In this document: positions 43,263-64,000 of the stretch, one piece after another | Numbering within the stretch: the first letter of the stretch is position 1 | Layout: each line of letters begins with the position of its first letter | NCBI GenBank assembly: GCA_002633005.1 | Contig: NMRA01000078.1 | Coordinates: 1,004,233-1,068,232, forward strand | Reading direction: 5' to 3' | Length of the DNA stretch: 64,000 nucleotides | From: Phoronis australis | Taxonomy: Eukaryota; Animalia; Phoronida | Program-made: the position numbers and the translations under genes | Notes under the pieces: generated by a model | What the model was told of the DNA's origin: nothing | The model's database searches: none | Seen by the model: the letters and a program-made list of their open reading frames with translations, nothing else

Positions 43263-45044
43263 CGTTCAGTGTGCTAAACTAGTTTTTACCTGATGCAAGC
43301 ATACAAAATTATTATTTAGGAAATGTATGTCTCTGCACTCAACCTATGTCATCGTTCCCAGACATTTTCCAACTCATCAAGTGAATTGTGCAGTGTATGT
43401 GAAGCTTTCTGCTGGTCCAGAGTGAACATTTCTACAAGAGCAATTCTTTGACATATTGGATTGGGGTGACAAATTCTAATCTTTAAATGGGTAGCGCACC
43501 ACAGGGGGGCTAGATAGGGCTATAGCCCCCCCACTTTTTTAGCGCTGCGCCACCCATGCTTAGTCCATGAATGATGTCGGGTGCTTGTATTTACATGCTG
43601 AGATAAAAATGTTGTGGGCACTGAGTAGCGAGAATTTACTTTAAACTCCATTTGTCTAGTTCTATGGACATATATACTGAAGATTTTAAAGACGTTAGAA
43701 TCGGGAAGATGTGTCTTTAATGTTTGACACTAAAGCTTGAACACCATATGCAAGCATGTTTCCAAAATTTCGTTTTAATTATGTCTGGTGTCTAGTGACC
43801 TATACCCCTATTTCTTGCCAATGGTCTGTCATTTCCATTGTTTTGATTTGATTAAAATGCTGTTCACACTTGGTGGTTCCAATAAGACCTTTAAAATGTC
43901 AAGCCTCTGCATAAAATGATGGTACAGCTATCTTTCTTCTGTCTTATAATAACATGGGCATCACAGTCTGACACAGACGCTTGTTTACTTGAAATAAATA
44001 TACAGGGTCTACCAAAAATGTTCGCTAAAATTCTAAACTAGAACCACAGGATGGTTTATTGCAGACTATTGGTGCTTTTTTATTGCAGCGATCCCAGTTA
44101 GTTTTGCGGTGTTTTGAAATATCGGTGTTGAGTAACTTCAATTTTTTTGCTAGTTTGGCACCAAACTGAACCGTTCGTACCATTCCATTGCAGATATCAA
44201 AAAGCTGATGACAGACCATGTCTGCGTAAAAAGACCTGTGTCAATTTCTGTTTTTGGAAATAATGTTCGATATGAACATAGTATGCCGTCTGTGAGAAGT
44301 CCTTGTTCTGCACAGCAATGACAGAATAAGCCGTGCCTAGGTTGAAAAATGCGCACGTGGTTTTGCTGCAATTAATGCCACCTGTGACACCTTACCTAAC
44401 GTCTGTGGTAAAAGAAACCTTGGTGTTCATGGATGGTGAAAAACACCTTCACTTCCCACTAAAGTCATTTCCCGGTATTCATATTTCTGAGTTAAGATTT
44501 TTGATACACCCTATACGTAACATTTTTGTCTTGTAGCTTAATGATTTGTCACCTGTCTCAAGTTGGCATTTTGGCTTTGTGCCAACCTTTTCAACAAGTT
44601 AATTAGCCATCAAAGGCGAATGGAACAAGTAAAAAGTGATATCCCAGGCCCTGGAGCAGCTTGCCAATTTCCGTGTCAATTACCAGAGTGTTCATTGTTC
44701 AACTGTAAAAGTTTATAAAGCATTAGAAGGACAAGTGTCAATATAATTTTGCTGTAAACTAGCAATTAGCACAACTGCAGTGAACTGCATGTGGAACAAA
44801 GCCATCTCAATGTGCGGCATTGTGGGTAAAGCATTACAGAATCTGAGTGGCGCTTTGGTATTTCGGGGTATGTCTACGGATTGGCATACGCAGCCCAGAT
44901 AATATTCAGTATGCTAAGTCTAAGTATCACTTTCAAACATGGGCCAAACAAGCACTGGCATTATTAACCGCTTCTTTTGCAAGAAACTTAGGAAATGCTT
45001 GCATGGCTACCGCTTGCCAAATGTGACCATGTAGTTTTCAAGCT

Positions 45045-45130
45045 GCCAAATGTGAAACGAACTCGCCAAATGTGAAACGAACTCGCCAAATGTGAAACGA
45101 ACTCGCCAAATGTGAAACGAACTCGCCAAA
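45045..45130. repeat. 20-bp minisatellite, 4 perfect copies plus a partial (GCCAAATGTGAAACGAACTC)
   Basis: Units at 45045, 45065, 45085, 45105 and partial at 45125. Confidence 0.95.
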
Positions 45131-45465
45131 AGGAAACCCCATGTGTGGCAGCCCCTATTGCAAAAGTTTTGTTTGTAGTATAAAAATAGTGACAAATTAT
45201 GCGTTCAATGACCAACGCATTGTGTATGAGAAAAAATGCTATCAATTTAAGCTCGGAAACCACCACAAAGTTCAAAGCAAATTACAGTTGAATTGACATC
45301 TGTCCGACTTCTTCTGGCTTGGTTTCAGCTTGCAAAAAATGGTGACATCTTTGTGATTCAAGATTTTTACCAAGTCGCCAAACAAAATCACATTGTCAAG
45401 ATACAGGTCACCAAATTGAGCCCTGATTGATGTTGTTTCATAGCCTTGCCTGTTCTTAATTACAG

Positions 45466-45520
45466 GTGACACCTCCAGGTAACATCAGTCACTGCGTTGT
45501 TTCTCAAGATTGCAAGAGAG
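45466..45520 (+). CDS. IL-17 receptor-like gene exon VTPPGNISHCVVSQDCKR(A)
   Basis: TTCTTAATTACAG| acceptor and GAG|GTAAGT donor; 55 nt, phase 0-1; joins 50913 in frame. Has a Cys pair and an NIS sequon. Confidence 0.75.
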
Positions 45521-48500
45521 GTAAGTGTACAATTCATCACGATTTTGTATCTTTTTTGACTTTACCTTAATACCGTGTGATGCAATAACACTGAAGTCCA
45601 TCTCATAGTCGCTGGGTGGAACTGGAGACCATCATCGGAGTTGTCAGTATGACTGGTTTTTGGAGGAACTTTGGCGATCATGACAAGAAAACAGAGAATT
45701 TTAGGTTTTTACGCTTTTCTACTTGTTGTTCAAAAGTAAAAAGTAACTGTGCAATTTGAAAAGTGTGTTAGATTTTCATGCTACCAATGAAAATTGTGAT
45801 AGGTTTTCATGCTAACATTACTTTTACCTGTATCTCAAAAGCGACGACCAAATTGAGACCTGTAATTGTGTTGCAGGTCCACACTGTATGTAGTGCATTT
45901 AAGTTTTCTCACCATAGAAATGGTAATTTATGGCCTGCGTTCAGAATGCGTAAGGGCTTGGTGCCCTATCACATGCATGTGCAGTGCATATTATTGAGCC
46001 AAACCTAGGCCATGACAATCTGGCAACTGCAGTGGAGGTCAGTTCTGATCGAGAGTCACATACAGATGAGCTGGTTGAAAAGTTTGGAAATCATGATTGA
46101 AGGACTAAATTCTTAGTAATTGTAGGCGACATGTTATATTTCAAATCTGGATTGTCGGTGGGCTTAAGTGACAAAATGTCGCTTAATGACTTTATTAACA
46201 AAAGAAAGAAGTTTTCAAGTTATGTTTGTCCGCCATCTTATGAGTAGAAATCTTTTGTTTTCGGTCTGAAACAGCAGTGTCGTAAGAACCAATCTCGTGG
46301 CGTTATATGTAAAGGTAAAATGGTATGTAGAATCTGAAGCTCTTTTTTTTCTTCATTATCTTGGATTTTTAGTTTACACCAAACGGACGGTGTCAACCAT
46401 AATCATAATAAAGGTTATTCAAATAATTGCCAAAAATGCCTTTTTCCCATTTTCATTTTTTCCATTTTCAAAATGTTTTCCATTTTCAAGAGCTTCTACT
46501 TACATTGCTGTGATCTCGCAATTGTTCAGAACTTTATCCAACGGCTGCTGTGGAACCAATCTTGAACAAGGAAAAGCATTTAACCATAATTATAACTATA
46601 CTGTCTGGTAAATTTGCCTTCTTGCGCTAATCGCCATGACAACCTCAGACAACTTTGTTTTCGCATTTGATTCCGGGATCAACACATATGGTGCTTTGTC
46701 ATTGAAGGCTAAATTGTGTCCCCTCTGCATATTTAATGTCTTAAATACCATTGATGGGTTTTTGTTTCTCACAAGGATGTGGTACTCCACTTCTTTTTGT
46801 GGAGTGTTTTTTTCTGTTTCCTGCATAACTGTGAATCACGTTAGGTAATGTATCCATGGCCTCGGGTTTTCACAAGATAATGCAAAAAATTAGTGCCCGA
46901 CGCATGCCAATTTCACGTAAAACTGCCTTCATGTTTATAGTGGAAATCCATGAAGTTTTGTTATTTGTTAGAAATGGCCTTGACCCACTAAAGGCTAAGT
47001 AATTCCCACTATGCATTTTTAGCTTCTTAAATGCATTAAGTGTTAAATGTTCATATTGTTCGTGAGAAAAAACGTGGTGGTCATGTTTTTTTAAAGAGTG
47101 CCTTTGCTCTCCGTGTACACTTCGGAATCACATTATACAACGAATCAATAGCCTTGGTTTGGTTTTCACAAGATATTATAAGTACTGAAGCCAGACGCAT
47201 GTGAGTTTCAGCAGAAACTAGTAGGGATCTGCAACGTAAAGTCACCCCTAACTTTTCAAAAATTTTGTTTTTAAACACACATACTTGGCTTTTTAGATTT
47301 CCCACTTTAAACGCTCTTGCGTTAACCGCAAGATTACATTGCTTGTTTAGTCGAAATAACTTTTGTCTGTAATGACGGGTAGTTAACGGTCGTCATGGTT
47401 ACGGTAAGGTGTACCAGTATTTTTTGCTTGTACCTAAACGTGTTCTGTCATTTCCATAATATGTACACATTAAAGCACACTTCATCAATGTACAATACCG
47501 AGATATGAGTAATACAGATTTTTTTGCAATCACCATATTCTGAGTCAATGTAAGTATTTGTGTTTTGAGGCGTGGTAATATTAATTAATTAAATAAGTGT
47601 GATATCACTTTCCAACGCCCAGTGAGAGCACCTGGGGTGAGATACTTTAATGACCGTAATTTTTTTTTTTGTTAGCAAGAATTGCTTTGTGAGCAAAACC
47701 ATGGGTCGGTTCTTTCTGTTCAGGGTGTTAAGTCAAGCAAAAGTGATACACAAGAGTCTTGGGGTATTTTAATGGGAGGTTCAACGAGGAGATGAAATTT
47801 TAGGCCATCTCAAAAATTTTCAATAATCTATTGAAAGATGTGGTTTTAGTGACAACTGCTGGGTTTTTGTTGTTCCAGAATCCAAAGTTAAGTTTTGCAA
47901 TGTTGAGAAGTTGCTGCTGCAGCTATGATTCATGGTAGAGGAAAATTTTTTTAGTTTTGGCGTCAAACGCCGCCAGTTGCTCAGCTTCTGTGCCGATTTC
48001 AAGGATTTTTCAACGACGCCGGTGTTGTACAAGTCAAAAGTAATAAGACTAAATACCGTTTTCTCATTGTGACGGTTAATTCAATCTGTAAATAGCAAAA
48101 ATGACTGGTAATAGCTGTTGCGGCAGCAAAAGTCTAATCACAGAATGGGTTTAAGCTGCCTTCAACTTGCCTGTTAATTCAGTCTTAGTCGTGAGAGAAA
48201 ACTGTTCTGACGTTGAATTCGGATTCCTCCCAACTGTCGTGACAGGGAATTCTGGGTCATTTTGTTCAAATACTTTTGGCTCGTACTGTATTTCAAGGTG
48301 GAGAGCATCTGAAATTACAGTCTCGGTCTATGTTGTCTGCAATGGAAATTCTCCTTGATTTGAGGCCAGGTTGAGAAGTGCTTGTTGTATAGAGCATTAG
48401 ATGGCAGAGAGACAGCTGTGTTATTTGAGTCTGCCGTGTCATTTTACGTAATGTCTATATACTGTATTCACAACTTACCTGGCGGCCATATTTAAAGCAA

Positions 48501-48642
48501 TTTCCTGTATAGGGCTTCCGGTCAGCGTCGTACAATAACATGTGTTACTGTGTGTACATTGAAACTTGCGAAATTTGCCAAGATAACGGAAAATACGCCA
48601 GAAGGTGAACAGAAAAAGTATAGAAAATTAAGCAGTGGATAA

Positions 48643-48896
48643 CATTGTGCGATGAAGGATTGCACTAACAATCGTAGGAAACTCTGGAAACTGGAGACTT
48701 GTGAATCTCACGGAGTTGTTCACGATGACTGTCCGTGCCCCCTGCTATACCAACTTCACCTGATTCCACAAGACAAAGATAAAAGGAGATTGTGGTTGTC
48801 AGCAACCAATCGAAATGATCCACCAAAATATATCTTTGTATGCTCTGAACATATTTTGGATAAACTGAGATTCCTGGAACATAAAAAACATGATTA
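48643..48896 (+). pseudogene. Decayed THAP zinc-finger coding remnant, probably from a DNA transposon, interrupted by a MITE
   Basis: HCAMKDCTN...CESH...CPC...LHLIPQDKDKRRLWLSATNR...FVCSEHI shows the THAP C2CH pattern with the conserved P, W and CSxH(F). There is an in-frame TAA just upstream and the frame is cut by the 48897 insertion. Confidence 0.75.
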
Positions 48897-50276
48897 CCGT
48901 ACTCATCCGAGTTACGCCCCATGCTCGACTTACTGCCCACCCCCGAAAATTTCAATTTTTCATAAGCGCCCATGCTCGGCTTACCGTCCACCCCCAATTT
49001 TTCATGATCGAGACTTCCGTAAAAGTATCAGTATGCTTCTGTGAAGGTTTGACGCACAAAATTAAGATTCCAAAATGTTCGCAACTCGCTTACCTTTCGC
49101 TGACAATCAATCAGTTTTAGCGGAATCGGAACCTTTGCCTTACTATGGCGGTAACATATCTGTATTCTCATGCCCTTTACTGAAGGAAACACAATTATTT
49201 CCTTTGGCTCGCGTGCGGAACTCGTGTCGGCATGTACTGATCACTGAGACAACGCTTGTCCAATGTATTTCGTTTGCAGTTTAAGAACCAGCAAAGCAGT
49301 ACCTGACACTGCTGATGTCAAGTCCGTGGACAACCTTTCTGTGATTCCCCGTGACAGTACACGAAACATAACACCACCCTGAGCATTGAAATAAGAAAAG
49401 ACATGATCCATTGTGACAAGCCAACTTGCCTTGCTTTTCCGGTCTTGGTTAAACGCATGTTTTTAATGACTTTCACTCCAGAGTGACACCAAAATGAAAG
49501 CACCCAACCAAAGGCAAGTGCCCCAAAAATCAACTTGTTATTAGCCCAAGTCGAACATTCTGTCCACGTTCTATGCGGTCAAAATTTTATTTTTTTGAAC
49601 ATTTGATTTGCCTGATGACTTATTACAAGATGTGTTTTTGCTTCATTATTTTGGCAGCTCACCGAGTACCCTTTTGCCTAATAATAGTATGGTCCGATTG
49701 TTGAGCACTGCTTTGAACAACAGCAGTGTTGCCTTTGAGCTCAAAAAGAAATATAATGTATATAAAATGTTACATTGTTCAAAGTATTCAATAAGAAGAC
49801 CTGTCAATCATCAGCAGTGCTTGGTTGCCTAAGTTCAAGCAAATCTTTACACAATCAAGTGCTTCCCTTAAAATACACCACGAACTACCGGAGTCTTGTT
49901 AGATCTGTCTTTTCTCTCAAGAAACTTGCTCTACTGAATGCATGCCTACCTGTAGGAATACCTCAGTTCTAAGAGATAACCAGCAGCGAGGTACGTAAAA
50001 ACCCAATCAGGCTCAGGATTGCGACGTCACTGTATCGTGTGCGTCAGCCGTCAAAGTCCGTTAGTTCAATCCCCCGACTTATATTTTAACTAGTATGATT
50101 GAAGTCCAACATCAGTGTAACTCCGTTTGGGTAAAATCGGTACTCCGTGCAGTAAGCAACAACTCACGACTTTTCAAAAATTTTGATTTTAACAGCCCAT
50201 GCTTGGCTTACCACCCACCCCTGTTTTTTTAGATTCCCAATTTAAGCGCCCTGGGCGGTAACACTGATGAGTACGG
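48897..50276. mobile_element. Non-autonomous Tc1/mariner (pogo-like) element, 1380 bp, TA TSD
   Basis: TA|CCGTACTCATC ... GATGAGTACGG|TA, with subterminal CCCATGCT(C/T)GGCTTAC repeats. Older relatives of the right arm lie at ~14150-14230 and ~47250-47340. Confidence 0.88.
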
Positions 50277-50912
50277 TAGTTCCCAGCCAAAACCATTCTG
50301 ATCAGTGTGTTCACATTTCAAAGTATCACTCGTGGACCCACTGTTTTCACACCTTAGAAAATATTAATGATGGTCATGATTCTAGAGTTACCAAATGAAT
50401 GGAAATTTCAGAACAGAAAGTCACATTCTAGTTCTGTGTGCTGAGCTATGAGCAATGACCGCATTTATGACTGCTATTTTTTGGTGAATTGCCAAGACAT
50501 TTGGAAAGTTAATGTGATAACATTTTGATGGTGTGGTGCTTTGCGCTATTTCATATAAATAACCAAAAAGGTTGATTAACTAGGCAAAATATTAATTGTC
50601 CAAAAGGCAAAAAACTGACTACAAAAATTAGAATCAGAAGGGGCAAGAAGGCACAAAAGCAGACGAGCTGACAACAAAACTTTGAAGAACAAAGCACAGT
50701 CATCAGGTTTAAATATCTGAATGCATTGCTTACCTTTTAAGAACTTTCATGTGAATGAGAGTTCTACTTTTCTACTACACGCGTGCTAAAGTTTTCTGCA
50801 AGGTGAAGTGTACACATCCTGTAGTATGAGTTATCTCCCCTTGTATACACTGGTAAGTTTGGTGGACCAGTACCCCTCTAGCATCATTTACTCTGTCCTT
50901 TGTTTTCTACAG

Positions 50913-51038
50913 CGGCAAGCGTGTTCCGCCGTTTGCCCAATGCCTGGGACCATGCCTCCTTGCGTGGAATCAACGGATCGAGAACTGACCGCGTCTACCG
51001 TCTCAGTTTCTCATGGTTGCCTCCAGTTCTGGGCGAAG
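50913..51038 (+). CDS. IL-17 receptor-like gene exon ASVFRRLPNAWDHASLRGINGSRTDRVYRLSFSWLPPVLGE
   Basis: TTTGTTTTCTACAG| acceptor and AAG|GTAACT donor; 126 nt, phase 1-1. LSFSWLPPVLG resembles IL17RD VTILWSPGALG (recalled from memory). The true frame differs from the ORF-track frame. Confidence 0.85.
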
Positions 51039-52600
51039 GTAACTATAACAGTCAGTGATGTGAAGTAACCTTTGAAGTGAGGCCAAAAAATAACAGAATT
51101 GTTTCTGGTCTGCATCCAACTCCTTTTGAAACCTTTGCCTCGCAACTCGCATCAGGGGACCCTGAGTGCGAAAGGGATTGTGCCACGCATTTCAGCTGAC
51201 TAAGTGATGGTGAGGACAAAAAATAAATGAAATGTCCTTACCAATTTCAAGTGGCTTTATCTGATTGGACAAATAAAAATGAGTAACTCACAAATGTTGA
51301 AAAGGGAGACCAGAGTTATGCTGTTTTCTTTGGCCTGGGAATGTTGTGGATTTTGTAAAACTTGTCTTACTCGGAACAGACTCAGGTAGAAGCATGTGCA
51401 AAAATAGTGCTCGGTACTAGCGGCATTTGTCTGATTTTTGGTTAGATTTCTGTGTCTGGCATTAGAGCTATGATTACATCCGAAACGAGGATCTGACCTC
51501 TGGGCGCTGCATCTGTAAGACGTATCCATTTTGAATGTTGTCATAGTTACAAAGCCAGGTATAGAAACTCACTTGAAAAATGCAGGATGTGTACGGTGTA
51601 CGAAAAATACTGCTTTTTACTTTCAATACTTTGGCAGAAACTTATGTACAAATGTCCACTGCTGACTTCAAAAGGGCTTTTCACACTACAGTTACCCTAG
51701 ACTAAGTTACTTTTGAAACAAGTTGTGACTGGGTTTAGTGGTACTGTGGACACTACTTTCACTGGGACAATTTAACATGCGTGTGACCACCTACCCCAGC
51801 TTATGGGTGTAAGGTAAATTGTTCTAAGGGTAATTTGCTTCAGTGCAAGTTGTGGTGTGGACACAAACCTGCTGACGAGGCGAAAGAAACTACCATCTGT
51901 GCGCTTGCTCAGTTACACCCTTAGGGATGTCTATTATTTTTTGCATCAGGTTTGTCACACAGTGTAGGGTGTATAGTAGAGAAGTTTGACTGAACAGGGT
52001 CAAGTTGCAATACGACAAGGGTAACTGACATAGTTTGGAGACGACTTACATTGAAGTCATATAGTTAGCCGGAATGATAAATATCATCCACACTGGACCG
52101 CCTTTTTATTAGAAGCAGTACACCTGGTATTGGCCAAGATGAGTGTATCGTCAGGTGTATTTATATTTTAATATGGCAAATTATTTATAAGCTGGGTATA
52201 TGAAGGTGGGTGCTCAATTTACACGTTAACCTTAGTGGAAGTGTTTTTGCGGGCTTGTGATTGTTTTGGCTACAACCAGACTGATACGAGCTTTAAAACG
52301 CACCTTCAGCCTGGGTTTAAATTGAGAAATTCAAGTCAGGGAGTGGATGAATGGAACACTTAACTTGATTCGCTGATTGACCTTTTCGCGGATGGAAGAT
52401 GATATGAAATAGCCCTGCCACAGCTGACGAAACACATTCGGTGCAATCACTAGGTGGTGGGGTGGCTGGATATCCCATAATTCTGGGCTCTATGATTTGC
52501 ATGCATGCAGTTTTCACCATTCATTGATGTGACAACTCATGACGACTTCATGCACAACCGATAAAATGAACTCTTGGATAAGTGCCAATTTCTTCTCCAG

Positions 52601-52704
52601 TCGCAGCCAAGGTGTCAGCGTTCCTGCTAACATTTCGTAATCGTCAGAGCAATTTGTCGCGATGTTACTTTGTGGAGGTCCAAGGAGAAATGACTTCTGA
52701 TCAG
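52601..52704 (+). CDS. IL-17 receptor-like gene exon (V)AAKVSAFLLTFRNRQSNLSRCYFVEVQGEMTSDQ
   Basis: TTTCTTCTCCAG| acceptor and CAG|GTACGT donor; 104 nt, phase 1-0, exactly bridging its neighbours. Absent from the ORF track. Confidence 0.85.
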
Positions 52705-54472
52705 GTACGTGATGCAGAAAAGTGGGTAACTCAAAAGTCACCCATAGGTGGCGCTTAATGGAAACAGTAGTCTTTAATTTACCTGTGTATCCATGCATTC
52801 AGGAGTTGGGCTGGCTGAGCATGTTTAAGAATTATCAAATATTGCAGTCTGATGATAATATTTTGGTATTGCTTTGATATTTTATAGATACTTCGAGTGA
52901 GATATGTGGGTGTGCTTAATACCTGAGCTTTGCAGTGTTGTTGTTGGTATTGACCTTGGTTTGTCACATGTATGGACTGGACAAACAAGACTTATATAAA
53001 CTAGTGACCAGCATATTGCAGTAATACCGCTTTGTTATGTATTCCAAGGAAGGGGGGGTCATAGGAGAAATTATGTTAATACTCATTTAGCATGCCATTT
53101 GTGGCTAACTGAGAGTAATACTTCATAGTGGTCCGAGGCAACTAATAATATCTTGCATATTGCTTTCTCCATTCATGGCAAAGAGTGGGTTTTACAGAAC
53201 TTAACCCTCTGAAATTATCAATCCAGGACTAAGTTTTTGTACAATATTATGAGCAGGTGGAAGCCTTCGCCAAAATAATATAAAACAGTCATAAAGTAGA
53301 TTTTCTGTCTTTATACAAGCATCCATATTTGGCTTTGTGCAATTTGAGCGTAGTTGCTTATAATTTTGGGGATGGATTAAGTCATGGGTGTTGTTCACAC
53401 CTAACAGGCCTTTTGAAATTGTCCTAGGAGGTCTATGGAAGCAGTTCTTTGTGAACACTGCAACTGTCTCAGTTGGATTGTGGAAGTAAACACAGATTAA
53501 CCAAGGGTTTATGGTCATGACTGATAAGATAATTGTTTTATTACTCCCCATGAATTATGAATAGCTGAGCCTGGAATGTTTAACATTCCCTAACCTAGGC
53601 TTCCTACAGATCAGGGTGTACTACCCTTTTCCTGCATGACTCTTACTTGCATTCTCATTGACAACATCCTTTCCCATGTGCGATGTTCTTTTGCTTATGG
53701 GCTGTGGGACTTTTCTCTTAAAGTGTTGTTCAGTTCTTGTGAACTTCATCTTTTTCTCATAAGCCATATTAAACGTAGCCGAACCGTATTCAGATACAGT
53801 CTAAGTCAATGTTCTTCGACTCAAACATTGTATGGAATATGTGATCTCTCAGATATCTCAATAGAAAAGTTAATGTTAGGATGATTTTAGAACTGTCACT
53901 GGTAGATAATTGGTGATTCGTGACGAATGACAAAGGGCACGGGGAGACTTAGAATGTAGTAGTTGATATCTGAGCTAAGTTCAATTTATAAACAGCTGCC
54001 ATTTGATGTTGAAACAAAATTGTAATGTCTTATCCGTGCTACTAATGGCAAAGATTAATCCACAAAATGGTGTTTGTCATAGTTCAAGTTTTGGCTCGTA
54101 ACTCTTGTCGTGCTCGTGTCTGCACATCTGTCAAGTGCGGTCTTCCGGAATGTTATCTAACACCCTTTAACTACAGGGGATTCAGTCAGCCCAGAATCGT
54201 GGAAGAAGTACCACAAAGTGCTATATATTTTGTTGAAAAACATCTTTCAAAGTGTGGATTACGAGAAGAGCACTGATTTCGTAGAAATTCTATTGGAGTT
54301 TTCAATAAAAGCACTGTACAGATTGTGAGAAAAGAATTTCTGATATAATGTGAATGCATATGCAAGCAATGAGGGAGAGAAATGGCTTTACCTACAGATG
54401 TCGCCACTGTGCAAAGTGGCCAAATCTATGCACAGACTGACGTTTGACTCACATTTCCTTCTTTCGTTCCAG

Positions 54473-54590
54473 ATATTCTCCTCCAACTGTTTTCCAGTTG
54501 AAAAACAGAGCAAGCACATTCTTGACCTCACTATCTTACCGCAAGGGACGACCACACGCTACTACGCCACCGTACCGGACAATATTGATG
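54473..54590 (+). CDS. IL-17 receptor-like gene exon IFSSNCFPVEKQSKHILDLTILPQGTTTRYYATVPDNID(E)
   Basis: TTCCTTCTTTCGTTCCAG| acceptor and ATG|GTAATT donor; 118 nt, phase 0-1. Shows the F..C......l.l..LP pattern of the IL-17R N-terminal FN3-like domain. Confidence 0.88.
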
Positions 54591-55863
54591 GTAATTATCT
54601 TTATTTCATCCCATAATGCATTCTGACCTGGGAAAAAGTAGAGACTTTTCACTCTTCCGAATCAAAAAAATATTGTTCAAAATAAGCAAAACTACATTCC
54701 TAGAACAGTAAGTTTATTCGGTACACTGACACCAGATGGATGGTTGCCAAAATTCTAAATTTCTGCGATGACAGAAAACGATGTTTGACATGGAGTTAAT
54801 TGAGTTTATGAAATTGTCATATTTCAGTAATGTTTCATTGAGACCGCATTGTGATTGACAATGAAATTAGAAACAAATAGATTTTATCTTTTGACGACAG
54901 GAAGTGAGGTTCGGAAGCACGTTGAGGTTTTGTATTTTGAATTACATATAACGATTTTTGTTGGCTAGTTGTACCAAATGATGTTACGATCGTTCTTAGT
55001 TTTTTCCATGGAATGCCATTTTTACAGTGGCTAAATTGTCTCAGAATTAAAATGCGTAAAGCTGCAATGTAGTTGTGGATTTGATCCCTGATTTCATGTT
55101 GGTTTGGGCTAAAGGTTGGAATATGGGGCTCCTGATTTTTTAAAAAAGCTTGATTTGATCAGAAATAAATATTACGTGGTGGTCGTGCAAAGATGACACG
55201 GAATTTATGGTTTCTGCCCAGAAGGTGCATTCATTATCAGGTATTATTACACAACCAACCAATGGTACATCATTTAGGCATGATATCTTGAGATAAACTT
55301 TAACATTGCCCAAGCCGGTTGTGGAATACCATTTCATTCATGCCACCCGGAGGTCAGAGGTTGCTATTCGCGACCTGACCAATGGAACGCTGTAGAAACC
55401 ACTGACCCTGACTACAAAGCAAGCAGACGATCAAAGCAGGTAGATGAAAAGTGACTGAAAGAACCTTCAGTGGTTGTAAAATAAACAAAATATACGTCGA
55501 TCCCTCAGGCATATCAAATCATGTGTACCTTTGTCAGTCCATATGACCCGACATCAGATTCCACATTTTGCGTTTTTGTATCGTGTAAGGTTGGCGAGAT
55601 CTTGCGAGACCATGGTTAAGTGCACTGCAAGATTTCACTGGTGCTTTGCGAGCAGTAGTCTTGGATGTTTCTAGTGTGCATCAGGCATAATTTCAATGTT
55701 GAGTTGGAGAAAATGATGTGCAAAGACGGAGTTTATAACCAATATTGACGTTCCGTCACGAAAATTACTCGGTCTCGCATGATAGTAGCGTTATACAATT
55801 ACAACACGCCATTGTTTAACTATGAGCCGATATTTTAATTGATTGTTTGTCGCCTGTTATCAG

Positions 55864-56024
55864 AGTCTCATAGTGCCAGGCTGTGGAAACCCGTCATAGT
55901 GCGCCGTGTGGCGTACGCTACAAAGGAACTCACCATCTACATCAACCCAGCCCCACCCAAATTCGGTTTCCAGTGGTATGAAATGTACCTAGTGAGACTA
56001 CCTGATTACTATAAAGCTGGCCAG
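55864..56024 (+). CDS. IL-17 receptor-like gene exon A (second FN3-like domain) SHSARLWKPVIVRRVAYATKELTIYINPAPPKFGFQWYEMYLVRLPDYYKAGQ
   Basis: CCTGTTATCAG| acceptor and donor CAG|GTAGTT (an alternative in-frame GTATGA lies at 56037); phase 1-0. WKP...AP..FGF matches IL17RD FWKP...HAPHNFGFRFFYL (recalled from memory). Confidence 0.88.
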
Positions 56025-59000
56025 GTAGTTGACTTCGTATGACCATGTATCTGTTTCATGAAAACTGACTTGAAACTTTTGTCTAAAATTTCGTTTTACA
56101 CTCTCACTTCTAGATATTATTTTTACGTAAATTTTAGCACCTCAAAAGTTATAGTAATATTTTGTACACATCATTTAGTTACCCAGCGACAGTGGTTATA
56201 TGTTGTGAGACTTTTTACCTTGCTCAAGTCAGATTGAATTATTTTTCGTAAATACGTGCGTGAAGCAAAAGACGAAATATCTGACCCAAGTCTTAGGTCA
56301 CTTCTCATGAAACAGACCCCATATCTCGTGTTTGTTGTGTGTGTGGTTTGGGGACACCTGGGCTGGCTTACATAAAACTTCCAAGATTTAGCTGTTGGAT
56401 AATTTTGATTGTTGAAAGACGACAAGTGCATTCTCAACAAAGGTGATGCGACACGAGAAAACGCGATGTCAGTGTTTATATCCAGCTTATAACCTCATGC
56501 AGAAAGGCTTTTACATCCTGCAGAAGATATGACAGTCTTTCTGCTGTTGTTCACTTTGGGAGATAAGGGATTCGATCTCATGAGCAGCTGAGAAAATTTA
56601 TTAAAAGCTACAACTGACTCAGAGTTAGATAAAGTGGTTGAATTGGATACATTTGTTTGACAGCTGCCTTGCTATTTAGGGTATTCGTTTTAGAAGATCT
56701 AACAATTAGTTTCAAAATAATCGGAGTTCATTCCTCTTGCAAAAATGTTTGAAATAAAAATGTTATTGATGAAATTAAACCTTATCTAATCATGATCTTT
56801 TATTGCAAATTGTTAAATTAAAAAAAAATTCACCCCAGTTCTGGCACAAACGCTGATATAGTATTCAAGCTACATTTCATCCTGTTCAGCTGGCTAAAAA
56901 CTGAAAATCAAATGAGGGCCTTTGTCTCGTTATCAAGACTGAAGAACATACAAATCCAGGACAGGTCGAGAAACCCCTTGGAAAACCGTTGATTTTTATT
57001 GGAGGTGGCTAACTTCGAAATTCGAAAATGGCGTGCAGGAACTTCCATTCAAAACTAAATCAGTCATGTGAGACAACTCTGATCAGCTTTAGTTTTGACT
57101 CTAACGTCTCTTGGTCAAAGAACTCTATGTTAAGCTCTTTCACTGACGCCACCTTTTGGCGACTCCACTACACGACTCACTTGAATGCCAACGTCACAGT
57201 TTGTCTATTTTTAGCTGTACAAGCAGGGGCTATTTACAACATTTACGACCACCTTGTGTTGGTCTTTTGCTTGACAGAAAATATTTTTTTGAGAATTAGT
57301 GATTTTTTTCTTGAACATGATTCAGATTTATGCCAACCAGACTTGAGTTTCAACTACCTGACAATGTACGCAAACATTTAGTATCATAGAATTTTCGATT
57401 TTCTGTTTGCAAATATCAACAATTTTGTAGTCTTTTTTGTTTGTGCTCTCAATTTTTTTTATTTATTTGGCACTGGAAAGTGTGCCACGCACTAGAAAGT
57501 TGACAGGGAGAGAGTTAAAGTGACCACTAAACAGGGTGACTGCAGCTTTAACCAAAGCGCTTTGGGCCACTGTTTAAAAACATTACCACACTTGTCCAAT
57601 TTTGAAGTGTTGCCGAATGTGCCGACAACTCAAGTCAGGGGCAAAGAATGTGGCATTTTCAAATTCGCTTCCTTAGGATCAGCTAGTCAGTTAAGTATTG
57701 AGGCGTTTCCTTGAGTCATTGATCAGGTGTCAATGTTCTTGTTTGTCATGGAAATGGAATCCTATCACTCTGAGGACCATTATGAGAATAAAAGGCTTAA
57801 TTTGGTTTTTGTTTTTGGCCAGCATATACAAAAATGTTGATGAAACTCCAAGATGTGTGCTTTATACACTGGTCTCTAAAACGCTTTTTAGGAATTGTTT
57901 TAAACTGTTCTCCATGTCTGCATAGCAAGTAGCACCATGTAGTAATAAAAACAACAATAGTTGTAAAACGGCTTGACATATTTCGGTGTCATTTATGTTC
58001 TACTTTTTCGTAAGGAGCTATCATCAAAAATTAGGACTTTATGATTTTGATGAAAAAATTAATTAGTTATAATTGCATAAAACTAAAACGAAATGATAAT
58101 TTAGAAAACTGTAACAGTGTCTTGATATTTTACGAAATTTTGTCTAGTTGTTATTAATCCTACTGTTTTGCTATGATGAATATATCTTTCTTTTTTTGCT
58201 AAATTTCCTTAAAAACAAGAGCCTATTAAGTGGCAGATTGGTATAATGTCAATAATCAAATTCTACGGAATTGATGCTTTCAGAAAATAATATATATTTT
58301 ATCCGAGTTAAATTCTATATTTTGGGAGATATTTAGCTAAATGCACAAACCCATCGACGTTTTTATAAGAACTCGGTGTATTTTTAAGGGTTTTACATCG
58401 AAATTGATGATTTATAAACAATGAATTTTCAAACGATAAGCCGACACCAATAACCCGTGTTGTGAACTGCTGAACTGTTAGACTGCATGTGAAACCAATT
58501 ACGTCATTGAATAATTTCAAAACCTCCGTCTGCCGTCAGGTATCAGGTAACGCAACCGAACCTGCCGTTATCAAGTAGAACTACTCGATCTAAATTGATA
58601 CAGAATAGGTTGTTTTTTGGGTGGCATTCTCCTTTAATTTCCTTTTTTCTGCGTTATTGTCACGTAGCCAGTACCTGGGAGATCTCTCCAAAGCACACAG
58701 TCACTCACATGTTACTGAATTGCTAAATGCTGCATTGTGGGATGTCCATGGTCATGTGATATGCAATTGGTGGTGGTGATTGGTAATGATTGACTTGCTG
58801 CTTGTACCCGTCTCCTGACACTCTGGCTAGCAGTTTTATGTGCTTCACAGTGTATGTCTAGACCTCGTCGCAAAACTGAAGTGAATGGTCTTTCTCTGTT
58901 TACTGCTTGGGCAGTCAACGTGCACGTGACAAGTCAATTCTCTGCCTAAGATTTTTCCGTGTTATATTTCGTATGAGCAGTGAAGAGCTTTCCGGCACTG

Positions 59001-61270
59001 ATGCTGCGCTTTTTCAAAATTCACACAAGCTGTCTTTAGTCTTACATAACTATTGATTTCGGCCAATTTACCATGGTAACACTGATCTGAAGTTGTCCAC
59101 ACACAGTTCACAGCTGATTTTTGGGCTTGTAAAAATCTGGAGCTCATTATTTTAGGAGGTTAGGCTCAATAAGGCAGCTAGACCGTGCATGTTACTGTGT
59201 GCATTTTTGATACAGTACAGCCCCTGACTTATTAGATGTCCGGGCTGCATCCAGTCTGGTTAGTCATGACCTTAACTGGAGACAGACCGGAGAGTGAGGT
59301 GTGAATCGACCATGACAACTGGCATGAGCGTCAGCGTGACTGTGCCTGGAGCTTACTGTGAGTTATGCGTGAACAAAGCGCGAGCCTTGAGCGGGGCAGG
59401 AGTTTCCCTGCCTGCACTGCAGCCGAGACAGTCTTAACTGCTATCCTCACTAGTTTATCTTGACAAAACACCGTATCGTATTTCTGGTGATGTTTCTCGT
59501 CTTGACTAGGACACTATTTTAAATTAAGATTTAATTTAGCTTTGTCTCAGCACGTTACCAAGAGAGTTTATTACGACCAAATTGTTTGCCATTGAATAGA
59601 AGAGAAATCAAGAGCCTTGAAATATGAAGTAATGCGCTTAAAACAAAAGATGCGCTTGCGACATTACAAAATCGGAATTTCTAGCTACTCAATACTTATA
59701 ATTGTTTGAAAACTTGATAGTTTCAAGGTTGCTGTGCAGGGATTTTGAACTTTGAACTGTTTAAAGCGTGACAAAAAGGAAAAAGTCGATGGAAATGGTA
59801 ACTAATGGCTATACACAAAAGAAGGAATGTGACAAGCAAAAAACACAGTCAAGTAGTTACAGTATTGGTAATGAGGAAAGAAAATGATTCCAAAATACTT
59901 TTCATTTCAACATGGTCATTCCTTGCGTCAGTACTTTACACTTAGCTGAACTCGCCCATCCCAGGTCGCCAAATGAAAACAGATCACCGAAATTGAGATC
60001 ATAAATTGACTTATTATTGTGTTTTCTTAGAGCGATAGGTCCAAACACACGTTGATTTTAAACTTTTTCCGATTTATTCGCTGTAGTAATTTTGACATGG
60101 ACAGTGTTGGATTTTGTTGCCCGTTGTGTTTGTTACTGCGGAATGTTACAGTTGCCAGAGGCAAATAACTAATAGTCGGATACAGGAGGATAACAGCAAC
60201 AGACCCCACACTCTTGGGCCAAGTTTTAGAGACAGTTAAAATTTGGGTATATGAAAAATTAGAGGAAAGCTTAAGTTTTGAGTGCAAGTTGAAAACTTAA
60301 AGCTTCTGTAGTTACACCCAATTGAACACAAAATAATATTTAATCATTTTTCATGAGAATCTAATTGACTGTAAACGTGTAAAACTTAAAATTTGAAGTA
60401 CTGTAAGTAAAGGTTTATTTTGGGGTGGTATGGTTCACAAACGGATAGAGCAGTATCGGATTCAGTTTTGCTAGTCCCCGACAGAAATTGAGGAAGAAAT
60501 ATGTAGCGCTTCTTTAATTAAGAGCTAAATACACGAGAAAAACAAATGGATAACTTTCTTGGTCTAAAGCATTACAATCCTACTGTGACACTCAGATGAA
60601 TAGCTTTCAAAGTCAACTGAATCATTTGTATTCCGTACACTAATTTATTTGGGAGTAAATTCCACAGCCCAACACCTATCTAGCTCGGGCACTTCTGGCT
60701 TATGTTTTGATATGAAAATCTGGTATTTGGTAGTTCTTACATGTCAGAGCATAGCACGTGACTTCTGCGAACATTTATCCCAAATTCCGGCATCATGCAT
60801 TTGACGTATCAAACAAGTGACCGCTATTAATATTTTACTGAAGAAAGGGATGGTGCTACAAATTATTAAATCGCACTAGGGGTTGTAGGGAATGGGGATG
60901 CCAGGTGAGGTGCCGTCACCTGCAGAAGAGCGCTTATTGAAATTTTTTGTTCTCGAGTGCGGAGCAAAAATCTACAGAGTGACAATACATGCACATGTAT
61001 CAAGATGCGTAGGCTATTTTAGGGCGAATTAACTATATCCAGCTGTCACGAGTTTCACAGAGTCCTCTGTAAACACGGCTGTGAACTCGGGGTGCGTGTG
61101 TTTGTCTTTACGAACCACGGTTTAGTCGTTGATGGGACAGGCTTTGTAATCATAAATGGGAAAACAATTGCATGTAATTGTAATGCCAGACGATCTGAAA
61201 GATTACTTTTGAGTTTGACCAACACGTGAAATTACGGAGTTTAAGTCGGAAGCCAGTGTTGAAAGATGAT

Positions 61271-61492
61271 TACTCAGCCATAACGACGCGCAGATCTAGA
61301 TGTTACATGTATTTTTATTGGTCCGGTGCACCATCACGGTTACCACATCTACCGAAGGCGTGAAAAAAGCATGAGGGAAGTGCGAGGAAAGCATGAGGGA
61401 GGCATGAGGAAGGCATTAACCGGAGGTAAGCGTGAGAAGGCCGTGACTGATTTTGCTCACGCCTGCGTTCTGGTTACGCTCCTGTCTGAGTA
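61271..61492. mobile_element. Small MITE-like element with GC(A/G)TGAG repeats
   Basis: Imperfect inverted ends TACTCAGCCA and TGTCTGAGTA; internal GCATGAGG/GCGTGA repeats and an inverted CTCACGC. Confidence 0.45.
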
Positions 61493-61746
61493 GCCGTGAG
61501 GCAGACAGGGCCAAGTCTAATAATTCAGTGGCTGTACTGTAAATAAGGCACAATAATTATTACTAGCTGTCTTAGAAACAGTTTCTACCTTCTCCATTGG
61601 CAGAGTCACTGTAGAAGCACCAACATACAAACATACTACTATAGTCACCAACTCCACCTTTTGCATTATTCACAGAACGTCATCTTGTAATGGTGGCATG
61701 GTGTTCACGTGCATTCAAACATTGTAAACGGTCTTATTTTAATTAG

Positions 61747-61922
61747 AGAATCGTGTTCCGGCTAATGCATGGAAGCCCAGCATGGCAAGACGTGTTAATT
61801 ACAAACGCCGTGAGGTGACTATCTACATTCAACCAGCTCCGAAGAGATATCAATTCAACAACTTTGAACTGATCCTGTTTAAGAAAGACATTGATATGCA
61901 GCACGGATGTTATGATTTACCG
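61747..61922 (+). CDS. IL-17 receptor-like gene exon B, paralog of exon A: NRVPANAWKPSMARRVNYKRREVTIYIQPAPKRYQFNNFELILFKKDIDMQHGCYDLP
   Basis: CTTATTTTAATTAG| acceptor and CCG|GTTTGT donor; 176 nt, phase 1-0. 18/36 ungapped identities to exon A from WKP to the conserved Leu. Confidence 0.85.
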
Positions 61923-62517
61923 GTTTGTGTAAAGTTGAACGAAATTTGCCAGTCAGCCAGTTGGCCACCAGTCCATCAGTGTAGCCAGTCTGTCAGTGTG
62001 AGTTGTGAAATACCAACAATTTTGGCAAACTAATGAAACGTTTCGTTTTTGGGGGTCATTTTTGCTTAGAAGTGATAACGTCTGCAGCCACATTCCATCC
62101 TAGACTAGTGCTATCACATGACTGCGTGGCCCGAGACTGTCTGACTGTTTGTTGGTAGGGGTATGCCATTTCATCTCATTACATTATTGCCTTTCCAATT
62201 TCTATTGCTGCTAGATTGTGTCTGATGTGATCTCTACTCTGTTCACAGCTAAGCGAGCTTATCTGCTCTATGTATTTAATGTTTTGAGTAGACAGACGCG
62301 CAAGTCTGTGATTCGTCTATTTCTGACCCATGTGTGTGAACCCGCGCCATTCACTGGCAATGCTGAGGTAATTGTCCTTTGTATGGATAACGAAAATCGA
62401 CGCGTACGCATCCTTGAGCATAGATTTCATACGAGTCCTCTAATTCAGAAAACAGAAAGTGTCTTGCTTGCCATCGTCTGCTTGGTAAGTTGGCTGTGTA
62501 CTTGTATCTATGATAAA

Positions 62518-62548
62518 CCTAGGAACCAATCTCATATTGGTTCCTAGG
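62518..62548. other. Perfect 13-bp-stem hairpin CCTAGGAACCAAT-CTCAT-ATTGGTTCCTAGG
   Basis: Read directly from the sequence; flanked by a GATAAAC direct repeat (62512-62518 and 62548-62554). Confidence 0.85.
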
Positions 62549-63467
62549 ATAAACTGAACGTCAGACAGCTTAAAATACTGCTCAAGATCCTATATCTTTG
62601 TCTGCTAGCGGTTCTGCTTAATATATTGCTGTCCCACAATCCTTTGTGTTTTTGACGTCTTTCGCTATCCGTAAAAAGTTCAGTGTTATAATTAGTCTTT
62701 CTGTCAACTTTATGTTCTCACCGTCACACAAGGTCGCGTTTGGAGACCGTATGAGACGCTATTACTCAGATTTTTACTTTAATGTTAGTTGTTTATTTTT
62801 TATTTATTATTTAAGTACAGTATTTCTGGTACTAATATGAAGTTTTTCGCGATTATTCTCAATCTGATCTTCAAGTTTAAATAAATTTTAGTCCAGTGTA
62901 TTATTAATATTCCGTTTTCTTTCAAACCTCTTCTTCAGCAGTGACTGCTATAGTTAGTATTGTCGTTTTAAAGTAGCGTCATCATTATGTCACCAAAGGT
63001 GTTGTTGATTTTTATTTTAATTGTAATTATTGCACAGTCTTTCATGGGGAATTATTTTTTAATTCTATCCAGCGGTGCAGATGCTCGAAATGTTACAATG
63101 TGTCAAAATACGGTTTCCACAAGGAAATCCTTTGCGCAAACTTGAATGATGAATATTGTATTGATGAGCGTGCGATCTAGGTTTAAGGCTTATCCGCTAA
63201 CGGGTTTTTTGGTCTATGATGGGTTTCATTACTACCTAGGTCTGTAAACGGTTAAAAAACTTCTTGGTCAATTCCATCACTAACCACACCTTTGGTGACA
63301 TCATGTTGAATTATTTTAGTCTGAGCTTGCATTCAGTGGCTAAATCTTACTTCTGTATATTTAGTTAAGTGTAATCCCAAGACACTTCTAGTACCCCTGC
63401 TGATAGGTGGCTCTGTGTTCTGCCGGTTGTTATAGTCCAGCAGTAATCGTGTGTGTAAACTTTGCAG

Positions 63468-63530
63468 ACGCAAACAACGACGCTGAACTTCACCTTCAAG
63501 GGTGTGTCTCAGGGAAGGTACTTCCTACGG
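63468..63530 (+). CDS. IL-17 receptor-like gene exon TQTTTLNFTFKGVSQGRYFLR
   Basis: AACTTTGCAG| acceptor and CGG|GTAAGG donor; 63 nt, phase 0-0. F..V..G.Y is the FN3 tyrosine-corner motif (compare IL17RD LLQNVSPGDY, recalled from memory); NFT sequon. Confidence 0.85.
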
Positions 63531-64000
63531 GTAAGGACATAGTTCATAGCACGACCTCTAACTCATAATTTCATCATAGGACTTTTAGCGAGAGATCAGG
63601 TCCACTGTTCACAGCATGTCAAGGTGACGTCTTTGTACGATCATTTTTCTTGTGTTGTACGTTAAATGTATTTAGCCACATGTCATTCAGATGGTGTCAC
63701 CTGGTAAGAGCTGAAGTGATGCTGAACTTTTTTCTCTTAGCATATCACCGGTCCAGTGTTATGCAGTTGGCTGACAGCAAGGTGATTTGCTAAGTAGCCA
63801 AGCTTTTTAGTGAAAAGCTACCTTACGTTGTCGTAGATTCTAAACAAATAAACTTCACTATCAGTAATGCGGGTGGTTACTGTTTTCTTTAAAAAAGGTA
63901 AACGTTTCAAAATTAGTTGGGTGCAGACCAGAACGAATTACTAATTTTCATTGGCCTTACCCAGATTTCTTGAGAGACATAGCTTGTGTCAGTTTCATGC

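What the first reader, a model, noticed from the sequence alone, without database searches (positions are those of the whole stretch)
55864..61922. Duplicated same-phase exons: candidate mutually exclusive splicing in the IL-17R-like ectodomain
Seen: exons A and B are ungapped paralogs (18/36 identical), both phase 1-0. Both begin AG, completing the same Glu codon from the 54590 donor, and either joins the single downstream G.Y exon (63468) in frame. Splicing A directly to B at 61747 shifts frame. I found no intact copy of the F..V..G.Y exon between them. Knowledge: this layout is the hallmark of mutually exclusive exons (FGFR IIIb/IIIc, Dscam). Inference: two receptor isoforms swapping the N-terminal half of the second FN3-like domain, potentially switching ligand or co-receptor specificity; I know of no description of this for IL-17 receptors. 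The alternative is a tandem domain repeat whose small linking exons I missed.
Basis: partly seen in the sequence, partly recalled or inferred. Interest (0 to 1): 0.8.

Follow-up and report, generated by a model that had tools for sequence, protein, structure and literature searches.

The report
Either-or exons in IL-17-type receptor
An animal gene for a probable IL-17-type cytokine receptor carries two diverged copies of one exon, and RNA reads show it splices in either one while skipping the other, giving two receptor versions that likely differ at a predicted cytokine-contact surface.

Summary
Confirmed, with RNA support. Exons A (55864-56024) and B (61747-61922) are paralogous phase 1-to-0 exons (18/36 identical residues in an ungapped core; 14/41 third codon positions alike; no flanking similarity). 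Both match the first half of Pfam Ig_ILCR1, but only B passes the cut-off. In three RNA runs of one study, junction reads were U-A 5, A-C 5, U-B 21 and B-C 28. No A-B or U-C joint was listed, although joints with 2 or fewer reads per run stay hidden. A uses the 56024 donor and makes up 10 of 59 reads. This meets published criteria for mutually exclusive exons. A+B would shift frame and stop early, so decay of double-inclusion mRNA likely helps; a docking/selector pairing did not exceed shuffles. By analogy with IL-25-IL-17RB, the swapped part probably covers ligand site 3, not the co-receptor contact; no binding was tested. SEFIR and transmembrane parts lie outside the window, so a Torso-like kinase is not excluded. 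No orthologue was found. Ten paper searches and two human catalogues showed no IL-17R case; the scan had not noted one, but noted similar pairs in Trk and EGFR. A known device in a new receptor family.

The parts
45466..45520 (+). Upstream coding exon E1 (55 nt, phase 0 to 1); first exon of the gene that I could place
   Evidence: Joint E1-E2 in 5/12/20 reads; boundaries
50913..51038 (+). Coding exon E2 (126 nt), probably the start of the first FN3-like domain (D1; inferred from position, no Pfam match)
   Evidence: Joints E1-E2 and E2-E3 (16/11/7 reads); no Pfam hit
52601..52704 (+). Coding exon E3 (104 nt), probably D1
   Evidence: Joint E3-U 12/16/9 reads
54473..54590 (+). Constitutive exon U (118 nt, ends in phase 1): probable end of D1 and start of the D1-D2 linker
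   Evidence: Joints to A (5 reads) and B (21 reads)
55864..56024 (+). Alternative exon A (161 nt, phase 1 to 0; 54 codons with the shared Glu; no Cys): minor form, 10 of 59 junction reads
   Evidence: U-A 1/0/4 and A-C 0/3/2 reads; Pfam PF23608 positions 3-41 of 114, 21.3 bits, E 2.9e-4, below the 27-bit cut-off
56025..61746 (+). Intron between A and B (5722 nt), with high sense-strand read depth and repeat remnants; never listed as spliced out on its own
61747..61922 (+). Alternative exon B (176 nt, phase 1 to 0; 59 codons with the shared Glu; one Cys): major form, 49 of 59 junction reads
   Evidence: U-B 12/3/6 and B-C 8/8/12 reads; Pfam PF23608 positions 2-47 of 114, 27.5 bits, E 3.6e-6, passes the cut-off of 27
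63468..63530 (+). Constitutive exon C (63 nt, phase 0 to 0): continuation of the second domain; the rest of the gene lies beyond the window
   Evidence: Receives joints from A and B; boundaries

Best explanation
Exons A and B are tandem-duplicated exons of a probable IL-17-receptor-like gene, and RNA shows each spliced between U and C with the other skipped, so the gene likely makes two receptor ectodomains that differ in the D1-D2 linker end and the first half of D2. Shown: both single-exon splice paths exist, B about five times as often as A; both keep the frame; A+B gives an early stop. Inferred, splicing: the two exons compete through middling-to-weak splice sites, the introns around them are removed late, and double inclusion or double skipping is likely cleared by nonsense-mediated decay rather than blocked by sterics or a docking hairpin. 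Inferred, protein: the swapped stretch probably carries part of the cytokine-contact site that IL-17RB forms from its helical linker and first D2 loops, so the two forms would differ in affinity or preference for IL-17-type ligands (about 0.35 for a real ligand difference; about 0.9 for two productive single-exon mRNAs).
For: Junctions U-A 5, A-C 5, U-B 21, B-C 28; all 9 listed joints were shown and none was A-B or U-C. Each path appears in at least 2 of 3 runs. Hatje et al. criteria (PMC5740500 passages) are met at the 3-read level. Divergence is old and codon-patterned: identity 25/41, 25/41, 14/41 at codon positions 1, 2, 3; dN 0.63, dS 1.48 (41 codons, noisy); 400-nt flanks no more alike than shuffles; neutral decay of A kept an open frame and 19/41 residues in 0 of 3000 runs at 0.75 substitutions per site or more. 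Both exons match the start of Pfam Ig_ILCR1. Both fragment models place a short helical turn and two strands at equivalent positions. The A+B stop lies 104 nt before the B-C junction. In C. elegans 14 of 19 clusters with non-3n exons rely on decay (PMC4165533 passage). Site 3 of IL-25-IL-17RB, the largest of three (760 square angstroms), is made of the helical linker and D2 loops 10, 11, 12, 15, 18 (PMC9477748 passage).
Against: A rests on 10 reads from about 8 start places, in one study, from 18-19% of each run. Joints with 2 or fewer reads per run are not listed, so up to 6 A-B and 6 U-C reads could be hidden; in that worst case independence of A and B is not rejected (Fisher p 0.24; p 1.5e-5 if both are truly zero). 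No long reads and no protein evidence. A falls below the Pfam cut-off, and its model drew no FN3 matches. At 0.3-0.5 substitutions per site neutral decay still passes in 20% and 3% of runs. No orthologue was found, so conservation of the pair is untested. Usage did not differ significantly between runs (chi-square p 0.17). The mapping to site 3 rests on domain position and loop numbering, not on an alignment to IL-17RB (one search found no PDB sequence match). Intronic depth between U and C is about as high as the junction counts, so many transcripts are unspliced here.
Confidence: 0.75

Rival explanations
1. B is the real exon and A is a fading duplicate that is spliced in at a low rate without a function of its own.
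For: A is minor (10 of 59 reads; 1 of 21 in run X1), scores below the Pfam cut-off, lacks B's Cys and is five codons shorter; a repeat-like hairpin starts 26 nt behind its donor.
Against: A has an open frame, both splice sites in phase, higher site scores than B in a rough matrix, and codon-patterned divergence after the flanks lost all similarity. A 17% share (Wilson interval 9-28%) is high for noise.
Confidence: 0.1
2. The receptor is not an IL-17R but another double-FN3 receptor, most plausibly a Torso-like tyrosine kinase; the exon swap would then tune binding of Trunk-type ligands. The splicing result stands either way.
For: Torso and IL-17R share the double-FN3 ectodomain (PMC11087794 passages). 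No transmembrane or SEFIR sequence is in the window. E2, E3 and U have no Pfam match.
Against: The only family matched by A and B is Ig_ILCR1, and B passes its curated cut-off. I could not test whether Torso ectodomains also match this model.
Confidence: 0.15
3. The main role of the region is unproductive splicing: introns around A and B are detained or polyadenylated within, which limits receptor level or yields soluble, truncated decoy ectodomains; the A/B swap is secondary.
For: Sense-strand depth is 3.8-5.3 in the U-A, A-B and B-C introns against 0.05-1.2 in three upstream introns (selected bins). Read-through of U, A or B stops after 9, 5 or 36 further codons. Eleven poly(A)-signal hexamers lie in these introns.
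Against: No place where many molecules end was listed. Hexamers are expected in A+T-rich DNA. Late removal of introns around alternative exons is ordinary (own knowledge). Library type is unspecified. The reading does not explain why two exons stayed intact.
Confidence: 0.1
4. Exclusion is strict and structural, as in Dscam: one docking site pairs with selector sequences next to A or B.
For: This mechanism is common for duplicated exons in long introns (PMC6071210, PMC9013439; search listing and abstract start only). No A-B joint was listed. Three inverted repeats of -33 to -40 kcal/mol lie near A, B and C.
Against: The best shared partner for regions next to both exons did not beat shuffles: upstream model -23.7 kcal/mol, 28% of 36 shuffles as good; downstream model -22.9, 20% of 30. 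The inverted repeats pair within one intron, none competes for both exons, and they look like transposon ends.
Confidence: 0.2
5. A and B belong to two successive domains of one long ectodomain, joined through small exons that were missed.
For: None found.
Against: U-B and A-C joints skip the other exon; no joint into or out of the A-B intron interior with GT-AG ends was listed; no remnant of C, U, E2 or E3 between A and B.
Confidence: 0.02

Closest known systems
FGFR2 exons IIIb/IIIc (listed as a tandem-duplicated event in the supplements of PMC8373072 and PMC5740500; ligand switch recalled)
   Same: Two homologous, non-3n exons that each encode half of a membrane-proximal beta-sandwich domain of a receptor and are used one at a time.
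   Different: Here the domain is FN3-like, the N-terminal half is swapped (FGFR: C-terminal half of Ig3), and neither tissue-specific switching nor a ligand difference is shown.
Homologous mutually exclusive exons whose fidelity depends on nonsense-mediated decay (C. elegans, PMC4165533; human, PMC5740500; passages)
   Same: Both exons are 3n+2 nt, joint inclusion shifts frame, the intervening intron is long, and all sites are GT-AG.
   Different: Dependence on decay was not tested here; no IL-17R gene name occurred in the texts or supplement files searched.
Human and mouse IL-17RC splice isoforms (PMC2596096 passages, citing Kuestner 2007)
   Same: Alternative splicing of an IL-17R ectodomain changes ligand binding: loss of exon 12 abolishes it; mouse IL-17F binds only full-length forms.
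   Different: Those are exon deletions. Here one homologous exon replaces another, so both forms keep a whole domain.
Sea urchin SpIL17R1 (PMC5457136 passages)
   Same: An invertebrate IL-17R with many exons and alternative splicing.
   Different: Its alternative exon 16 is a cassette between the membrane helix and SEFIR, not a duplicated ectodomain exon.
IL-25-IL-17RB-IL-17RA structure (PMC9477748 passages)
   Same: Gives the layout used here: linker plus D2 loops form ligand site 3; D1 tips form the co-receptor contact.
   Different: No sequence match to these chains was found, so the correspondence is by domain position only.
Dscam exon clusters with docking and selector pairings
   Same: Tandem homologous exons, each encoding part of an extracellular beta-sandwich domain.
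   Different: Two exons rather than arrays; no docking/selector signal above shuffles.

Membership tests
Mutually exclusive exons (criteria of Hatje et al. 2017, PMC5740500) | Neighbouring internal exons with sequence similarity, same frame, no in-frame stop, lengths within 60 nt in steps of three | tested here: met
   18/36 identity, score 91 vs shuffled maximum 41; 161 and 176 nt; both phase 1 to 0
Mutually exclusive exons (criteria of Hatje et al. 2017, PMC5740500) | Junction reads from every exon that bridge the other exon (at least 3 for high confidence) | tested here: met
   A-C 5 reads (0/3/2), U-B 21 reads (12/3/6)
Mutually exclusive exons (criteria of Hatje et al. 2017, PMC5740500) | No reads joining the two exons, unless joint inclusion shifts frame | tested here: met
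   No A-B joint listed (2 or fewer reads per run would be hidden); joint inclusion shifts frame in any case
Exclusion by steric hindrance | Donor of the first exon within about 50 nt of the branch point of the second | tested here: inconclusive
   The intron is 5722 nt, so the simple case is excluded; a distant branch point near A's donor was not mapped (looked only 120 nt upstream of each acceptor)
Exclusion by U2/U12 incompatibility | U12-type sites on one side of the exons | tested here: not met
   All joints are GT-AG and none of the donors shows the U12 consensus (recalled)
Exclusion aided by nonsense-mediated decay | Double inclusion creates a stop more than about 50 nt before a downstream junction | tested here: met
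   Stop 104 nt before the B-C junction. For U-C the frame shifts, but the stop would lie beyond the window
Exclusion aided by nonsense-mediated decay | Double-inclusion mRNA rises when decay is blocked | not testable with these tools
   Needs UPF1 knockdown or translation block
Dscam-type docking/selector clusters | One site complementary to sequences next to each exon | tested here: inconclusive
   No better than shuffles in two layouts, 300-nt selector windows only
Dscam-type docking/selector clusters | Conservation and covariation of the pairing across species | not testable with these tools
   No orthologous DNA found
IL-17 receptor family (definition in PMC11087794, section 8) | Extracellular double-FN3 of IL-17R type | tested here: inconclusive
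   Second domain: Pfam Ig_ILCR1, B passes the cut-off, A does not; 47 of 50 fold rows for B's model are FN3-bearing proteins by title, but Z is at most 2.9 and no IL-17R is listed. First domain: no Pfam or PDB match for E2, E3, U taken singly
IL-17 receptor family (definition in PMC11087794, section 8) | Signal peptide and single transmembrane helix | not testable with these tools
   No upstream exon identified in 1-45400; the window ends 470 nt after exon C; no genome held
IL-17 receptor family (definition in PMC11087794, section 8) | Intracellular SEFIR domain | not testable with these tools
   Outside the window
FGFR IIIb/IIIc-like ligand switch | Cell-type-specific choice of exon | tested here: inconclusive
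   A share 1/21, 3/14, 6/24 in three runs; chi-square p 0.17; tissues not known
FGFR IIIb/IIIc-like ligand switch | The two forms bind different ligands | not testable with these tools
   No ligand of this species is at hand; needs binding assays

The most novel reading that the evidence does not exclude
An FGFR IIIb/IIIc-style switch in the IL-17 system: one invertebrate IL-17 receptor gene builds two versions of cytokine site 3 by exon choice, so that cells pick which IL-17-type ligands they hear. This would be a way for animals with many IL-17 ligands and few receptors to keep specificity without duplicating the receptor gene.
Probability: 0.3. Interest if true: 0.72.

Novelty: new member of a known kind. 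Interest (0 to 1): 0.5.

Why it matters
Invertebrates can have many IL-17 ligands and few receptors: the purple sea urchin has 35 IL17 genes and 2 receptors (PMC5457136, abstract). IL-17R ectodomains also diverge fast, possibly with their ligands (PMC11087794, section 8). A duplicated, exchangeable half-domain at a predicted ligand-contact site would be a concrete way for one gene to serve two ligand classes, and gives a clean natural experiment: two ectodomains that differ in one 54-59-residue stretch. The splice variants of IL-17 receptors that I found in print delete exons; none swaps homologous ones. The device itself is well known, and the case rests on one species with no ligand data.

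Tried and rejected
No genome held, so the 3' part of the gene could not be read. The run search listed no RNA holder by index; runs came by species label. Run X4 (contigs) gave no exon joints. Homologue searches found nothing usable: word-index search with B and with the A/B alignment, longer proteins only; full HMMER library, one repeat-type chance hit, P0003; metagenome contigs, two 15-residue matches, taken as chance and not followed; ESM Atlas, best scores 0.79 and 0.85, unrelated bacterial clusters; PDB sequences. The third word-index search was left unused. Foldseek with B's model gave nothing at E 0.001; VIA-align with A's model gave mixed folds, Z at most 3.2. Half-domain models are weak (mean pLDDT 69 and 65; pTM 0.44 and 0.38). 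Docking/selector scan not above shuffles. Rfam: no match in 44000-64000. A rough splice-site scan of 1-45400 gave 15 candidate exons; 6 of them plus 5 other upstream frames went to Pfam, with no receptor domain. Rejected: the 56036 donor (not listed; weak score); A and B as two alleles placed in tandem (64/123 nt identical in the core); missing linker exons. Ten literature searches listed no paper on duplicated or mutually exclusive exons in an IL-17 receptor; the library lacks most subscription papers. 'IL17R' had 0 hits in the 1 supplement file of PMC8373072 and the 10 files of PMC5740500 held as text (FGFR2 found as control); files not held or cut could differ.
Full report
1. Observation. 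The window is intron-rich animal DNA of about 38% G+C. Earlier scan notes on the same genome call it a marine invertebrate; I did not test that. Exon U (54473-54590) ends with one base of a split codon. Exons A (from 55864) and B (from 61747) each follow an AG acceptor and begin with AG, which completes the same Glu. B ends at 61922 and A at 56024 or 56036, all in phase 0, and exon C (63468-63530) starts in phase 0. The core of A and B aligns without gaps, 18 of 36 residues identical; the global score is 91 against 10 +/- 5 for 2000 shuffles. U-A-C and U-B-C are open. U-A-B-C shifts frame and stops 104 nt before the B-C junction; U-C shifts frame too. No further copy of any of the seven exons scored above shuffles in the three introns between U and C (21 tests, lowest p 0.09).

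2. RNA. Three raw RNA-seq runs with the same species label and from one study were laid on the window; 18-19% of each run was read. Upstream, reads join 45520-50913 (37 reads), 51038-52601 (34) and 52704-54473 (37), all GT-AG and on the sense strand. On 54251-63550 all 9 listed joints were shown. Four are GT-AG: U-A 1/0/4, U-B 12/3/6, A-C 0/3/2 and B-C 8/8/12 reads. The A-C joint skips 7443 nt, which fixes A's donor at 56024. No A-B or U-C joint, and no GT-AG joint into the interior of the A-B intron, was listed. The other five joints have non-canonical ends or change strand and look like repeats or allelic deletions. A accounts for 10 of 59 junction reads (17%, Wilson interval 9-28%; 8 of 48 by start places). 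The share was 1/21, 3/14 and 6/24 per run, not significantly different (p 0.17). The limit of this test is the listing threshold of three reads from two starts in one run: up to 6 A-B and 6 U-C reads could be hidden. If both are zero, independent inclusion is rejected (p 1.5e-5); in the worst case it is not (p 0.24). What is shown without that caveat is that each exon is spliced in with the other skipped, and that only those two forms keep the frame. This meets the validation rules of Hatje et al. at the three-read level: bridging reads for each exon, and no joining reads unless joining shifts frame (PMC5740500, passages).

3. Age and selection. In the 41-codon core, identity by codon position is 25, 25 and 14 of 41; dN is 0.63 and dS 1.48, a rough ratio of 0.43. 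The 400 nt on either side of the two exons are no more alike than shuffles. In a simulation, neutral change of A kept an open frame and 19 of 41 residues in 0 of 3000 runs at 0.75 substitutions per site or more, in 3% at 0.5 and in 20% at 0.3. The duplication is therefore old and both exons were probably kept by selection, though 41 codons give a noisy estimate and no second species is available.

4. Protein. Both exons match the start of Pfam PF23608 Ig_ILCR1: B at 27.5 bits (cut-off 27; model positions 2-47 of 114), A at 21.3 bits (E 2.9e-4; positions 3-41). Fragment models give both a short helical turn followed by two strands at equivalent positions. For B's model, 47 of the 50 rows shown are FN3-bearing proteins by title, but Z never exceeds 2.9 and no IL-17R is among them; A's model gave mixed folds. 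These folds are weak support. E2, E3 and U have no Pfam or PDB match singly; reading them as the first FN3-like domain is inference from position. B is five residues longer and has one Cys; A has none. The transmembrane and cytoplasmic parts lie beyond the window and no genome is held. IL-17R is defined by double-FN3 plus SEFIR, and the kinase Torso has a similar ectodomain (PMC11087794, section 8 and passages), so the name 'IL-17R-like' is supported but membership is not complete.

5. How it most likely works. Splicing: the A-B intron is 5722 nt and all sites are GT-AG, so simple steric or U2/U12 exclusion does not apply. A scan for one site able to pair next to both exons was no better than shuffles (28% of 36 and 20% of 30 shuffles as good). 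In a rough matrix of my own, the donors of U, A and B (1.7, 2.9, 1.5) score below those of E1, E2, E3 and C (4.4-7.9), and B's acceptor is the weakest of all. Sense-strand depth in the U-A, A-B and B-C introns averages 4.6, 5.3 and 3.8, against 0.05, 1.2 and 0.8 in three upstream introns; I chose bins by hand and left out those with repeat coverage on both strands. The simplest reading is slow, competitive splicing of two weak exons, with decay removing the frame-shifted products. In C. elegans, 14 of 19 clusters with non-3n exons depend on decay in this way (PMC4165533, passages). That step is inferred, not shown. [quoted passage not shown] A and B encode the end of the linker and the first 40% of the second domain, so they probably carry the linker end and the first of those loops. 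The likely effect is on ligand binding rather than co-receptor choice. This is an analogy by domain position; no alignment to IL-17RB could be made.

6. Rivals. A as a fading duplicate (0.10): it is minor, but intact and codon-conserved. A Torso-like or other receptor (0.15): this changes the ligand, not the splicing. Unproductive splicing or soluble decoys as the main role (0.10): intronic depth is high and read-through stops soon after each exon, but no transcript ends were listed. Strict structural exclusion (0.20): possible, no signal found. Tandem domains with missed linkers (0.02): contradicted by the skipping joints. These overlap and do not sum to one.

7. Comparison and novelty. The device is the known tandem-duplicated mutually exclusive exon, closest in logic to FGFR2 IIIb/IIIc. 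Alternative splicing of IL-17 receptors is known, and can change binding: human IL-17RC has at least 13 isoforms, and loss of exon 12 abolishes binding (PMC2596096, passages); sea urchin IL17R1 has a cassette exon on the cytoplasmic side (PMC5457136, passages). Those are deletions, not swaps. Ten searches and the supplement files of two human catalogues showed no IL-17R with duplicated alternative exons; subscription papers and database isoform records were not covered. The scan's own notes held no IL-17R case but several similar exon pairs in other receptors, and in two other genes of this genome; these are unchecked notes and suggest that the pattern is not rare in invertebrates. No orthologue was found.

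8. Verdict. The feature is real and expressed: two productive single-exon mRNAs, about 0.9. It is a new member of a known kind. The ligand-switch reading is plausible and testable but unshown, about 0.3. Interest 0.5.

Noticed in passing
window 54591-63467: Sense-strand read depth in the three introns around A and B is several times that of upstream introns (about 4-5 against 0-1.2), which suggests detained or late-spliced introns.
   Followed up: partly
window 56050-56097 and 56269-56316: 48-nt inverted repeat (77% complementary, duplex -40.5 kcal/mol; region z -2.2) starting 26 nt behind A's donor; the 3' arm draws reads from both strands, so it is probably a small transposon. It could affect use of A's donor.
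   Followed up: partly
window 59198-59236 and 61516-61552: 39-nt inverted repeat (85%) that could loop out 2.3 kb and ends 195 nt before B's acceptor; 12 reads join 59267 and 61514 on opposite strands, probably from other copies of the repeat or from template switching.
   Followed up: partly
window 62979-63006 and 63282-63309: 28-nt inverted repeat (89%) ending 158 nt before exon C.
   Followed up: partly
window 48643-49044 (+): Frame with a THAP zinc-finger domain (Pfam PF05485, 29.7 bits, passes cut-off) inside the E1-E2 intron, in a stretch with reads on both strands; probably a transposon remnant.
   Followed up: partly
window 57971-58640: High-copy repeat with deep coverage on both strands; 5 reads join 58633 back to 57691, which may reflect a tandem copy in another allele or a circular form.
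   Followed up: no
window 55119-55168: 8 reads skip 48 nt with non-canonical ends and 5 shared letters; probably an allelic deletion in the U-A intron.
   Followed up: no
window 1-45400: No upstream exon or signal-peptide exon of the gene could be identified by a rough scan; no RNA was laid here.
   Followed up: partly
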